Part shown: positions 1,319 through 1,549 of the stretch, piece by piece
How positions within the stretch are numbered: the stretch's first letter is position 1
Layout: each line of letters begins with the position of its first letter
UHGV virus genome: UHGV-0212823
Source of the DNA: a virus
DNA: 35,607 nucleotides
Direction: 5' to 3' (one strand)
The notes under the pieces: generated by a model
The model's database searches: none
What the model was told of the DNA's origin: nothing
What the model saw: the letters and a program-made list of their open reading frames with translations, nothing else
Position numbers and translations under genes: made by a program

Positions 1319-1393
1319 TGGAGCGGGCAGCGGGAATCGAACCCGCATCATCAGCTTGGAAGGCTGAGGTAATAGCCATTATACGATGACCGC
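1319..1393 (-). tRNA. tRNA-Gly (anticodon UCC), 75 nt
   Basis: Cloverleaf folded by hand: anticodon stem TCAGC/GCTGA, loop CTTCCAA, T-arm GCGGG-TTCGATT-CCCGC, 3' CCA encoded; U5-C68 mismatch in acceptor stem. Confidence 0.7.
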
Positions 1394-1394
1394 A

Positions 1395-1471
1395 TGGTCC
1401 GCCACCGAGGGCTCGAACCTCGCACCGTCAACTTAGAAGGTTGATGCTCTATCCCGATGAGCTAGTGGCGG
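1395..1471 (-). tRNA. tRNA-Arg (anticodon UCU), 77 nt
   Basis: Acceptor CCGCCAC/GTGGCGG, anticodon stem TCAAC/GTTGA with loop CTTCTAA, T-loop TTCGAGC, CCA encoded. Confidence 0.8.
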
Positions 1472-1472
1472 C

Positions 1473-1549
1473 TGGTGGCCCTTGCTGGACTTGAACCAGC
1501 GACCGGGCGATTATGAGTCGCACGCTCTGACCAACTGAGCTAAAGGGCC
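1473..1549 (-). tRNA. tRNA with anticodon CAU (Ile2/lysidine-type or Met), 77 nt
   Basis: GGCCCTT acceptor, anticodon loop CTCATAA, T-loop TTCAAGT, CCA encoded; resembles enterobacterial ileX-type tRNA from memory. Confidence 0.8.

What the first reader, a model, noticed from the sequence alone, without database searches (positions are those of the whole stretch)
1319..1549. Tightly packed three-tRNA cluster upstream of the lysis genes, including a tRNA-Gly with an acceptor-stem mismatch
Three tRNAs separated by single nucleotides (CAU, UCU, UCC anticodons) sit between the late leader and the holin gene, as in Stx-phage ileZ-argN-argO clusters but with Gly(UCC) as the third member. The tRNA-Gly reads, from memory, as almost identical to the host glyT product but has U5 opposite C68. 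That may mark a phage-specific variant or a decaying copy. The Arg(UCU) and CAU tRNAs read rare AGA and AUA codons, which may support late gene translation.
Basis: partly seen in the sequence, partly recalled or inferred. Interest (0 to 1): 0.45.

Follow-up and report, generated by a model that had tools for sequence, protein, structure and literature searches.

The report
Phage tRNA trio with hybrid tRNA-Gly
This is an ordinary lambdoid-phage cassette of three tRNA genes that read rare codons; its one oddity, a mismatched base pair in the glycine tRNA, looks like a scar left where two common versions of that gene recombined.

Summary
Three tRNA genes lie on the minus strand with 1-nt spacers: CAU 1549-1473, Arg-UCU 1471-1395 and Gly-UCC 1393-1319. 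ARAGORN finds all three, and they score 56-69 bits against Rfam tRNA (threshold 29).

- **CAU tRNA:** it is an ileX/ileZ-type tRNA-Ile2, not a Met tRNA.
- **Arg tRNA:** it uses the 933W argN scaffold with a UCU anticodon.
- **Gly tRNA:** it matches E. coli glyT at 74/75 positions. The only difference is G5->U, which gives U5·C68.

The cassette follows the known 933W layout: a pT-type promoter whose -10 ends 9 nt before the first tRNA, then the tRNAs, then a terminator, between Q and the holin gene. About 10% of complete E. coli genomes carry a prophage Gly(UCC) copy with the same downstream leader.

U5 marks a phage-borne allele that is normally paired: U5-A68 in 77 loci and U5·G68 in 13. U·C occurs in only 3 other loci. 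The window joins U5 to C68 together with a flank that is strongly linked to C68. The likeliest reading is a hybrid of the two alleles, weakened but not a pseudogene.

The cognate codons are the most enriched relative to an E. coli proxy, but they are not enriched specifically in late genes.

A conserved structured RNA follows the Gly gene.

The parts
1559..1587 (-). tRNA promoter of the 933W pT type: -35 TTGCAT (1587..1582), 17-nt spacer, -10 TACTAT (1564..1559), then 9 nt to the first base of the first tRNA
   Evidence: It has the same geometry as the promoter annotated 'pT; putative tRNA promoter' in 933W (TTGCAG-17-TATTAT, 9 nt, ileZ). Of 71 distinct upstream regions of Ile2-type tRNAs in related loci, 54 have TAnnnT ending 8-10 nt upstream plus TTG at 16-18 nt spacing. 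The generic promoter scan did not flag it, because it matches only 8 of 12 consensus positions.
1473..1549 (-). tRNA-Ile2 (anticodon CAU, ileX/ileZ type), first gene of the array
   Evidence: ARAGORN finds it and Rfam scores it 69.2 bits. It is 89.6% identical to K-12 ileX and 67.5% to metT, and it has C4-G69 and C5-G68. It is 93.5% identical to 933W ileZ by my count from the alignment. NCBI's PGAP annotation pipeline labels a 98.7%-identical copy tRNA-Ile. It has a U27·C43 non-pair at the top of the anticodon stem.
1395..1471 (-). tRNA-Arg (anticodon UCU) on the argN-type 'CCGCCAC...GTGGCGGNCCA' scaffold
   Evidence: ARAGORN finds it and Rfam scores it 56.0 bits. It is 81.8% identical to 933W argN, 58% to argO and 73% to K-12 argU. 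A20, C35, U36 and A73 can be read from the sequence. An identical copy (77/77) is in IMG/VR locus L035.
1319..1393 (-). tRNA-Gly (anticodon UCC), a hybrid allele with U5 (window 1389) opposite C68 (window 1327)
   Evidence: ARAGORN finds it. Rfam scores it 59.4 bits, against 64.9 for glyT and 64.8 for the U5-A68 allele. It matches K-12 glyT at 74/75 positions.
1137..1312 (-). Conserved structured RNA with three stem-loop domains, immediately 3' of tRNA-Gly (a late-leader-like element)
   Evidence: The minimum free energy of 1318..1080 is -85 kcal/mol, z = -5.0. In 35 homologues, 97.6% of pair cells are paired against 38-47% in slid controls, and 14 pairs show compensatory changes against 1-4. 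No Rfam family matches it.
1086..1111 (-). Intrinsic terminator closing the tRNA/leader unit, upstream of the holin gene
   Evidence: An 11-bp stem followed by a T run. It is the last hairpin in the fold. 933W and HK639 have annotated terminators at the equivalent place.
3212..3303 (-). Promoter-like site (3303..3274) and terminator hairpin (3229..3212) just downstream of Q; candidate pR'/tR'
   Evidence: The layout matches 933W, which runs Q, pR', qut, terminator(s), pT, tRNAs. A near-identical hairpin directly precedes the tRNA promoter in E. coli prophage L005.
3345..4160 (-). Antiterminator Q gene (context)
   Evidence: PHROG 127 at E = 5e-97 and Pfam PF03589.
119..975 (-). Holin (975..661) and endolysin (658..119) genes downstream of the cassette (context)
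   Evidence: PHROG 1350 holin and PHROG 7 endolysin.

Best explanation
This is a working lambdoid late-region tRNA operon of the 933W type.

**How it works**
- A conserved sigma-70 promoter ends 9 nt before tRNA-Ile2(CAU). Q-antiterminated read-through from upstream probably also transcribes the array.
- The transcript carries Ile2, Arg(UCU) and Gly(UCC) with 1-nt spacers and encoded CCA ends. It continues into a structured leader RNA and stops at a terminator before the holin gene unless Q is present.
- Host RNase P and 3' exonucleases would release the tRNAs, and host TilS would convert C34 of the first tRNA to lysidine.
- The three tRNAs raise the supply of decoders for AUA, AGA/AGG and GGA/GGG. 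These codons are rare in enterobacterial hosts and 2-6 times more frequent in this phage.

**The Gly gene**
It is a hybrid of the two alleles that circulate in such phages, the host-type G5-C68 and the phage-type U5-A68. The most likely origin is homologous recombination or gene conversion inside the 62-bp stretch the two alleles share. This left a U5·C68 mismatch. The mismatch weakens the acceptor stem, but every GlyRS identity element is intact. The mismatch is a by-product of mosaic recombination, not a selected feature.

**Shown versus inferred**
- Shown: the genes, their homologies, the promoter and terminator geometry, the allele frequencies, the flank linkage and the codon enrichment.
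- Inferred: transcription, processing, aminoacylation, benefit to the phage, and recombination rather than point mutation.
For: **The three genes are tRNAs of the stated types**
- ARAGORN and Rfam confirm three tRNAs.
- The first tRNA resembles ileX/ileZ rather than metT.
- The Arg tRNA uses the argN scaffold.
- The Gly tRNA matches glyT at 74/75 positions.

**The layout is the known 933W one**
- The promoter geometry equals 933W pT and is conserved in 54 of 71 distinct relatives.
- A terminator follows the array.

**Allele survey for the 5:68 pair on the exact glyT backbone**
- G-C: at least 125 loci.
- U-A: 77.
- U·G: 13.
- G·U: 3.
- Mismatches, apart from the window: U·C 3, U·U 1, G·A 1, A·C 1, C·A 1.
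- About 98% of loci therefore keep a pair.
- U·C and G·A are exactly the two hybrids expected between the two major alleles.

**Flank linkage**
- The window's upstream Arg gene plus spacer is identical to L035, whose Gly is U5-A68.
- The window's downstream flank type is linked to C68 in 36 of 40 distinct haplotypes against 26 of 104 otherwise (odds ratio 27, p = 6e-13).
- No other of 144 haplotypes combines this upstream module with this downstream flank.

**Not a pseudogene by score**
- The score drops only from 64.9 to 59.4 bits.

**Codon usage**
- AGG, AGA and AUA rank 1-3, and GGA and GGG rank 8-9, of 61 codons for enrichment over a K-12 gene sample.
Against: - The host is unidentified. 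No E. coli genome covers more than 16% of the first 25 kb of the window, so codon enrichment was measured against a proxy of 42 K-12 housekeeping genes.
- Other rare codons with no phage tRNA (CGA, ACA, CGG, TCA) are also enriched 2-3 fold.
- There is no late-versus-early difference, and the capsid and tail-tube genes avoid AUA, AGA and AGG entirely.
- Recombination is not proven:
  - L136 has an Arg-Gly(G5-C68) array with a 95%-identical distal flank, so a simple G5->U change would also give the window's allele.
  - L030 and L067 carry U5·C68 with both flanks of the G-C type.
  - The link between U5 and the Arg module rests on only 4 of 6 haplotypes.
- Nearest-neighbour folding predicts that the mismatch costs 5-7 kcal/mol. 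A misfold at -23.4 kcal/mol beats the cloverleaf at -20.3 kcal/mol for the unmodified transcript. The tRNA may therefore be partly defective.
- No expression data are available.
Confidence: 0.62

Rival explanations
1. The Gly gene is a copy of a G5-C68 allele (host glyT-type, as carried by many prophages) that has taken a simple point mutation. It is starting to decay into a pseudogene, while the other two tRNAs carry the function of the cassette.
For: - The mismatch is rare, at about 2% of loci, which fits a deleterious and short-lived state.
- Predicted cloverleaf stability falls from -27.5 to -20.3 kcal/mol. A competing fold becomes the minimum free energy structure, and the anticodon-stem pairing probability drops from about 0.9 to about 0.2.
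- L136 shows that an Arg-Gly(G5-C68) array with the same distal flank exists, so one substitution is enough.
- HK639 shows that this gene can decay at this locus.
Against: - There is only one change in 75 nt, and it lands on the one base pair that separates the two major alleles. It produces exactly the other allele's base, which is 1 of 225 possible single substitutions.
- The score of 59.4 bits is higher than the window's own Arg tRNA (56.0) and host tyrU (53.4).
- All GlyRS identity elements and the anticodon arm are intact.
- The same U5·C68 state occurs in at least two other phage contexts: L030/L067, and L027.
Confidence: 0.2
2. The cassette, and especially the U5 state of the Gly tRNA, is a counter-defence device. 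The phage supplies replacement tRNAs for those attacked by tRNA-targeting defence toxins, and a pyrimidine at position 5 hides the Gly tRNA from toxins that read the acceptor stem.
For: - The toxSAS FaRel2 selects tRNA-Gly and tRNA-Thr, with tRNA-Gly2 enriched most (11-12 fold). It recognises them through G1-C72, C2-G71, G4-C69 and purine5-pyrimidine68 (PMC11559606). The phage-type allele differs from glyT only at 5:68 and inverts that determinant.
- The P2 OLD nuclease depletes Thr(UGU) and Gly(UCC) among others, and phage tRNAs rescue infection (bioRxiv 10.64898/2026.07.10.737580; PMC12445682). Many related arrays end in Thr(UGU)-Gly(UCC).
- The U5 alleles were found only inside tRNA arrays, never in a thrU-tyrU-glyT-thrT context, in 22 species-representative genomes.
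Against: - FaRel2 comes from a Firmicute, and no enterobacterial toxin with this specificity was identified here.
- The window's Gly keeps the paired CAG/CUG (CNG) motif in its anticodon stem. That motif is the OLD determinant, and swapping the acceptor arm had only a minor effect on OLD. OLD resistance is therefore not expected.
- Most E. coli prophage copies of Gly and Thr are identical or nearly identical to host glyT and thrU. They are extra copies, not resistant variants.
- The window lacks Thr(UGU).
- Only one U-A lineage is seen, and there are no A-U or C-G alleles. This fits a single old origin as well as it fits selection.
Confidence: 0.12
3. The U5·C68 combination is an assembly artefact. 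A short-read assembler crossed from one Gly(UCC) copy (Arg-Gly with U5-A68) to another (a G5-C68 copy followed by the leader and holin gene) inside the 62-nt stretch the two copies share.
For: - The source is a metagenome; an ENA scaffold from sample SAMN11031420 matches the window exactly.
- Two independent assemblies break inside the Gly gene. Logan contig L103 ends at 1359, which is 30 nt after U5 (Logan assemblies, as I recall, use k = 31). ENA scaffold L239 starts at 1373, which is 55 nt into the tRNA from its 3' flank.
- A different phage in a sample with a neighbouring run accession (SRR8652814) shares the lysis cassette at 98.4%.
- The window's pairing of upstream module and downstream flank is unique among 144 haplotypes.
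Against: - Logan contig SRR8653022_368 runs through the whole gene and matches the window at 100% over 10,160 nt. A graph holding both parental copies should branch there.
- The two contig breaks are what any second Gly copy, such as host glyT, would cause.
- U5·C68 also occurs in isolate-genome prophages with other flanks.
- No reads were available to settle the point.
Confidence: 0.07

Closest known systems
Stx2 phage 933W pT-ileZ-argN-argO cassette (NC_000924; Plunkett et al. 1999, cited from memory; annotation read)
   Same: - Position between Q (with its pR' and terminators) and the late genes.
- Promoter of the same geometry: TTGCAx, 17 nt, TAyTAT, then 9 nt to the first tRNA.
- First tRNA 93.5% identical to ileZ (my count from the alignment).
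- Second tRNA on the argN scaffold, 82% identical.
- A terminator after the array.
   Different: - The window's argN-type scaffold carries UCU, which is argO's anticodon, instead of UCG.
- The third gene is Gly(UCC) rather than argO.
- Spacers are 1 nt instead of 9 and 13 nt.
- No stx genes follow; a structured leader RNA and the holin gene follow instead.
- About 1.7 kb of extra genes separate Q from the tRNA promoter.
E. coli lambdoid prophage arrays Ile-(Arg or Lys)-Thr(UGU)-Gly(UCC) between Q and the holin gene (e.g. NZ_CP017220, NZ_CM177019, NZ_CP163115; phage vB_EcoS-689R5)
   Same: - Same promoter.
- Ile2 tRNA 97-99% identical.
- Same Arg/Lys scaffold.
- Gly(UCC) as the last gene, followed by the same structured leader (77-97% identical) and then the holin gene.
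- Present in 527 of 5426 complete E. coli genomes.
   Different: - Their Gly is identical to host glyT (G5-C68).
- They carry Thr(UGU) before Gly, which the window lacks.
- In some of them the middle scaffold has an aberrant anticodon loop and is left unannotated.
Phage-type tRNA-Gly(UCC) allele U5-A68 (Yersinia phage YeP1; 56 IMG/VR contigs; prophage arrays in Buttiauxella, Izhakiella, Yersinia nurmii and others; the U5·G68 variant in Morganella and Edwardsiella)
   Same: The sequence is identical at 74 of 75 positions, including U5. The identical Arg-spacer-Gly junction is seen in L035.
   Different: Those alleles pair U5 with A68, or with G68 in 13 loci. The window has C68, so the pair is broken.
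E. coli chromosomal glyT (tRNA-Gly2, UCC) in the thrU-tyrU-glyT-thrT-tufB operon
   Same: 74 of 75 positions are identical. This includes the anticodon arm, the T arm, U73 and the first three acceptor pairs.
   Different: - G5 is replaced by U.
- The genomic context is a phage late region.
- The neighbouring tRNAs are different.

Membership tests
tRNA (Rfam RF00005) | Cloverleaf covariance-model score above the curated gathering score (29 bits) | tested here: met
   The three genes score 69.2, 56.0 and 59.4 bits. ARAGORN also calls all three.
tRNA-Ile2 (lysidine-modified CAU; ileX/ileY/ileZ) | CAU anticodon, closer to ileX than to elongator tRNA-Met, with the C4-G69 and C5-G68 TilS determinants (determinants recalled from Ikeuchi et al. 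2005) | tested here: met
   It is 89.6% identical to ileX and 67.5% to metT. C4-G69 and C5-G68 are present, and the C32-A38 anticodon loop is identical to that of ileX. The PGAP annotation pipeline labels a 98.7%-identical copy tRNA-Ile.
tRNA-Ile2 (lysidine-modified CAU; ileX/ileY/ileZ) | C34 is actually converted to lysidine and the tRNA is charged with isoleucine | not testable with these tools
   This needs mass spectrometry or aminoacylation assays.
tRNA-Arg(UCU), argU/argO function | UCU anticodon with the ArgRS identity elements A20, C35, U36 and A/G73 (recalled from the literature) | tested here: met
   These can be read from the sequence. The D-loop AUCGGGAUA places A at position 20, the anticodon is UCU, and the discriminator is A73.
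tRNA-Gly2 (glyT type) | UCC anticodon with the GlyRS identity set G1-C72, C2-G71, G3-C70, U73, C35, C36 (recalled from the literature) | tested here: met
   All are present. The gene matches K-12 glyT at 74 of 75 positions.
tRNA-Gly2 (glyT type) | Fully paired 7-bp acceptor stem | tested here: not met
   U5 lies opposite C68. The cloverleaf energy is -20.3 kcal/mol against -27.5 for glyT.
Phage-type Gly(UCC) allele (U5-A68 / U5·G68) | U at position 5 paired with A or G at position 68 | tested here: not met
   U5 is present but position 68 is C. Among U5 alleles, 90 of 94 loci have A or G at position 68.
933W-type lambdoid late-region tRNA cassette | Location between Q and the lysis or late genes, a pT-type promoter immediately upstream of an ileZ-like first tRNA, and a terminator after the array | tested here: met
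tRNA pseudogene | Truncation, degenerate arms or a sub-threshold score | tested here: not met
   The gene is full length, carries one substitution and scores 59.4 bits. By contrast, the HK639 remnant has a degenerate 5' half. The tRNAscan-SE pseudogene rule itself could not be run.
Defence-resistant phage tRNA (OLD-resistant type) | Loss or alteration of the paired CNG motif, or shortening of the anticodon stem (PMC12445682) | tested here: not met
   The anticodon stem UCAGC/GCUGA keeps C28-A29-G30 paired with C40-U41-G42, identical to glyT.
Defence-resistant phage tRNA (escape from acceptor-stem-reading toxins) | Change at a determinant read by the toxin (FaRel2: purine5-pyrimidine68) together with demonstrated resistance | tested here: inconclusive
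   The determinant is altered, with a pyrimidine at position 5. No cognate enterobacterial toxin was identified and no functional test was possible.

The most novel reading that the evidence does not exclude
The pyrimidine at position 5 of the phage-borne Gly(UCC) alleles, including this window's U5·C68 hybrid, is an adaptive escape from defence toxins that read the tRNA acceptor stem. Candidate toxins are toxSAS enzymes of the FaRel2 type, which require purine5-pyrimidine68, and GNAT toxins such as AtaT2. On this reading the lambdoid late-region tRNA arrays act as counter-defence modules as much as codon supplements. A broken 5:68 pair would then be tolerated, or even useful, because it removes the determinant.
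Probability: 0.12. Interest if true: 0.65.

Novelty: new member of a known kind. Interest (0 to 1): 0.3.

Why it matters
The cassette itself is textbook lambdoid biology, so its value is mainly as a well-documented example.

- **A recombination junction.** The Gly gene shows, at single-base resolution, a tRNA gene serving as the crossover point between exchangeable phage modules. The mismatched pair is the visible scar.
- **Two circulating alleles.** The survey shows that two alleles of one host-derived tRNA circulate in enterobacterial phages. They differ only at a base pair that a known anti-phage toxin class reads. This gives a cheap, direct experiment on whether temperate-phage tRNAs are anti-defence tools.
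- **A by-product.** An unannotated, covariation-supported structured RNA sits between the tRNAs and the lysis genes. It is present in about a tenth of complete E. coli genomes.

Tried and rejected
- **Host identification failed.**
  - No E. coli genome and no deposited phage covers more than about 20% of the first 25 kb of the window.
  - Look-ups of the Q, integrase and holin proteins returned only metagenome contigs (Logan SRR8653022, SRR17734974 and others; ENA SAMN11031420). These contigs break at the integrase/att region.
- **Literature searches for ileZ/argN/argO found nothing useful**. Plunkett 1999 is not held, so the 933W annotation was read from the GenBank record instead.
- **The generic promoter scan did not flag the tRNA promoter**. 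It was recognised only by conservation and by homology to 933W pT.
- **A first greedy ORF set was discarded.** It picked wrong-strand ORFs, and four early-gene coordinates had to be corrected.
- **Two first attempts at evaluating the cloverleaf energy were redone.** One used a mis-sized structure string and one had a labelling bug; one search is the corrected run.
- **OLD resistance of the Gly tRNA was considered and rejected.** Its anticodon arm is unchanged.
- **No Rfam family matches the downstream leader,** even at relaxed thresholds.
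Full report
**Observation.** ARAGORN finds exactly three tRNA genes in the 35.6-kb window, all on the minus strand. They are CAU at 1549..1473, Arg(UCU) at 1471..1395 and Gly(UCC) at 1393..1319, separated by single nucleotides and each encoding its CCA end. Rfam's tRNA model scores them 69.2, 56.0 and 59.4 bits against a gathering score of 29. It marks non-canonical pairs at 5:68 of the Gly tRNA and at 27:43 of the CAU tRNA. The Gly gene differs from E. coli K-12 glyT at one base in 75, G5->U, so U5 (window 1389) faces C68 (window 1327).

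**Context.** The window is a nearly complete lambdoid siphovirus genome written in vegetative order on the minus strand. It runs terminase, head and tail genes, integrase, early genes, Q (4160..3345), the tRNAs, holin (975..661) and endolysin (658..119).

- A promoter-like site and a terminator hairpin follow Q at 3303..3212.
- A Rha-like regulator and two small ORFs occupy the next 1.7 kb or so.
- Directly upstream of the first tRNA there is a -35 TTGCAT (1587..1582), a 17-nt spacer and a -10 TACTAT (1564..1559). The -10 ends 9 nt before the tRNA.
- This geometry matches the site annotated 'pT; putative tRNA promoter' in Stx2 phage 933W (TTGCAG, 17 nt, TATTAT, 9 nt, ileZ). It recurs in 54 of 71 distinct upstream regions of related loci.
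- An intrinsic terminator at 1111..1086 closes the unit before the holin gene.

**Identity of the tRNAs.**

- **CAU tRNA.** It is 89.6% identical to ileX and 67.5% to metT, and it has C4-G69 and C5-G68. It is 93.5% identical to 933W ileZ by my count from the alignment. NCBI's PGAP annotation pipeline labels near-identical copies tRNA-Ile. It is therefore tRNA-Ile2, which reads AUA once TilS has modified it.
- **Arg(UCU) tRNA.** It sits on the unusual C1-G72 scaffold of 933W argN (82% identity) but carries argO's anticodon. It has A20, C35, U36 and A73.
- **Gly tRNA.** It keeps every GlyRS identity element and the whole anticodon arm of glyT.

**How unusual Gly is as the third member.** It is not unusual. 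E. coli prophages carry Ile-Thr-Gly, Ile-Arg-Thr-Gly or Ile-Lys-Thr-Gly arrays at the same place. In all, 527 of 5426 complete E. coli genomes have a prophage Gly(UCC) copy followed by the same leader sequence. In those arrays Gly is identical to host glyT and Thr(UGU) is identical or nearly identical to host thrU.

**The mismatch.** I scanned IMG/VR and one genome per GTDB species for the exact glyT backbone, with positions 5 and 68 left free.

| Pair at 5:68 | Loci |
|---|---|
| U-A | 77 |
| U·G | 13 |
| G·U | 3 |
| U·C | 3, apart from the window |
| U·U | 1 |
| G·A | 1 |
| A·C | 1 |
| C·A | 1 |

- U5 marks a second major allele. It was found only inside tRNA arrays of phages and prophages, in Yersinia phage YeP1, Morganella, Buttiauxella, Edwardsiella and others. 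It was never found in the chromosomal thrU-tyrU-glyT-thrT context.
- That allele is normally paired. About 98% of all loci keep a pair at 5:68.
- U·C and G·A are exactly the two hybrids possible between the two major alleles.

**Flank evidence for recombination.**

- The window's Arg gene plus spacer is identical (77/77) to locus L035. L035's Gly is U5-A68 and its downstream flank is unrelated to the window's.
- The window's downstream flank belongs to a type linked to C68 in 36 of 40 distinct haplotypes, against 26 of 104 otherwise (odds ratio 27, p = 6e-13).
- No other of 144 haplotypes combines this upstream module with this flank.
- The simplest reading is a crossover or conversion tract ending inside the 62-bp stretch the two alleles share.
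- This is not proven, for three reasons:
  - L136 has an Arg-Gly(G5-C68) array with a 95%-identical distal flank.
  - L030 and L067 carry U5·C68 with both flanks of the G-C type.
  - The link between U5 and the Arg module rests on few haplotypes.

**Consequence for the tRNA.** The covariance score falls from 64.9 bits (glyT) or 64.8 bits (U5-A68) to 59.4 bits. That is still above the window's Arg tRNA and host tyrU. Nearest-neighbour energies for the cloverleaf are -27.5 kcal/mol (G-C), -25.4 (U-A), -24.8 (U·G) and -20.3 (U·C). For the unmodified U·C transcript an alternative fold at -23.4 kcal/mol becomes the minimum. The gene is weakened and may be partly defective, but it is not a recognisable pseudogene. 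Phage HK639 does carry a decayed copy at the same locus, with an intact 3' half and a degenerate 5' half.

**Assembly caveat.** The source is a metagenome.

- A Logan contig from SRR8653022 is 100% identical to the window over 10,160 nt and passes through the Gly gene.
- Another Logan contig ends exactly 30 nt after U5.
- An ENA scaffold starts exactly 55 nt into the tRNA from its 3' flank.
- These breaks are what any second Gly copy, such as host glyT, would cause. They show that U5 is linked to the Arg module and that C68 is linked to the holin-side flank.
- Only reads can prove that both bases lie on one molecule. I put a chimeric join at about 7%.

**Codon usage.** I used gene calls transferred from the metagenome contigs and checked them for frame. 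I compared 10,253 phage codons with 14,748 codons from 42 annotated K-12 genes.

| Codon | Phage (per 1000) | K-12 sample (per 1000) | Enrichment rank of 61 |
|---|---|---|---|
| AGG | 4.7 | 0.7 | 1 |
| AGA | 5.7 | 1.2 | 2 |
| AUA | 8.1 | 2.4 | 3 |
| GGA | 11.6 | 6.0 | 8 |
| GGG | 16.8 | 9.2 | 9 |

- This fits codon supplementation.
- CGA, ACA, CGG and TCA are also enriched, although the phage has no tRNA for them.
- Late and early genes do not differ (odds ratios 0.8-0.9, not significant).
- The capsid and tail-tube genes contain no AUA, AGA or AGG. The tape-measure gene contains 26.
- The host is not E. coli, so these numbers are proxies.

**Mechanism and rivals.**

- **Best explanation.** This is a functional 933W-type tRNA operon that tops up decoders of rare codons, with a hybrid Gly allele as a neutral or mildly harmful recombination scar.
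- **Rival: point mutation and incipient decay.** This is the main alternative for the origin of the mismatch.
- **Rival: counter-defence.**
  - P2 OLD depletes Thr(UGU) and Gly(UCC), and phage tRNAs rescue infection. However, the window's Gly keeps the CNG motif that OLD recognises, so resistance is not expected.
  - The toxSAS FaRel2 picks tRNA-Gly and tRNA-Thr through G1-C72, C2-G71, G4-C69 and purine5-pyrimidine68. The phage allele differs from glyT at precisely that last pair. This is suggestive but untested, and FaRel2 is not an enterobacterial enzyme.
- **Rival: assembly artefact.** See the caveat above.

**Side finding.** The 190 nt or so after the Gly gene (about 1312..1137) form a three-domain structured RNA.

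- The minimum free energy is -85 kcal/mol, z = -5.0.
- In 35 homologues at 77-97% identity, 97.6% of pair cells are paired against 38-47% in slid controls. Fourteen pairs show compensatory changes against 1-4 in the controls.
- No Rfam family matches it.
- Together with the terminator it resembles the late-leader (6S-like) RNA of lambdoid phages, here fused behind a tRNA array.

**Verdict.** The cassette is a new member of a well-known kind. The mismatch is a rare hybrid allele rather than a conserved phage-specific feature or a pseudogene.

Noticed in passing
window 1137-1312 (minus strand), with the terminator at 1086-1111: A conserved structured RNA of about 190 nt, with three stem-loop domains, lies between tRNA-Gly and the holin gene. 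It is supported by covariation in 35 homologues (14 compensatory pairs; 97.6% paired against about 45% when slid). It has no Rfam match. It is present in HK639 and in prophages of about 10% of complete E. coli genomes. It is probably the late-leader RNA.
   Followed up: partly
window 1395-1471; loci L004, L005, L026, L027, L033, L064, L071 and others: The argN-type scaffold CCGCCAC...GTGGCGGNCCA, which is the window's Arg-UCU, carries many different anticodon loops in relatives. These include Arg UCU, Arg UCG (933W), Lys UUU, UAU-type loops and aberrant 6- or 8-nt loops that ARAGORN cannot name. The discriminator base varies with them. The anticodon arm is the hypervariable part of an otherwise conserved tRNA.
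   Followed up: partly
L240 (phage HK639) about 1620-1700, equivalent to window 1319-1393: HK639 keeps a decayed tRNA-Gly at the same locus. The 3' 44 nt are identical, the 5' half is degenerate, and it is not annotated. The conserved leader RNA follows it.
   Followed up: partly
window 1473-1549: The Ile2 tRNA has a U27·C43 non-pair at the top of its anticodon stem, where host ileX has G27·U43. Relatives have U·C, C·U or A·C at this position, so it is never a Watson-Crick pair in the phage copies.
   Followed up: no
window 1600-3212: The terminator hairpin after Q (3229..3212, ACCCGCCTCTGAGCGGGT plus a T run) is nearly identical to the hairpin that directly precedes the tRNA promoter in E. 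coli prophage L005. This suggests that a block of about 1.65 kb was inserted between Q and the tRNA cassette. The block holds a Rha-like regulator (3054..2368), an 89-aa ORF (2289..2020) and a plus-strand 151-aa ORF (1671-2126).
   Followed up: partly
window 2020-2126: Two convergent ORFs, each with its own PHROG match (phrog_5286 on the plus strand, phrog_3501 on the minus strand), overlap by about 107 nt at their 3' ends.
   Followed up: no
window 353-1109 versus L238 (Logan SRR8652814_2542): A different phage, from a sample with a neighbouring run accession, shares the holin and endolysin region at 98.4%. Its genes between Q and the holin gene are different. The similarity starts at window 1109, inside the terminator that follows the tRNA/leader unit. 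That phage has no tRNA array. The lysis cassette is therefore a separately exchanged module.
   Followed up: partly
L001, L005 versus L003 (K-12 thrU-tyrU-glyT-thrT): In E. coli prophage arrays, Thr(UGU) in L001 and L005 and Gly(UCC) are base-for-base identical to host thrU and glyT. Those two genes are neighbours in the host tufB operon. The pair was probably captured from the host, with tyrU lost.
   Followed up: partly
window 14760-16400; loci L106-L109: All metagenome contigs that carry the integrase gene break within about 225 nt of it. This is consistent with attP/attB junction heterogeneity, meaning a mix of integrated and free phage in the samples.
   Followed up: no
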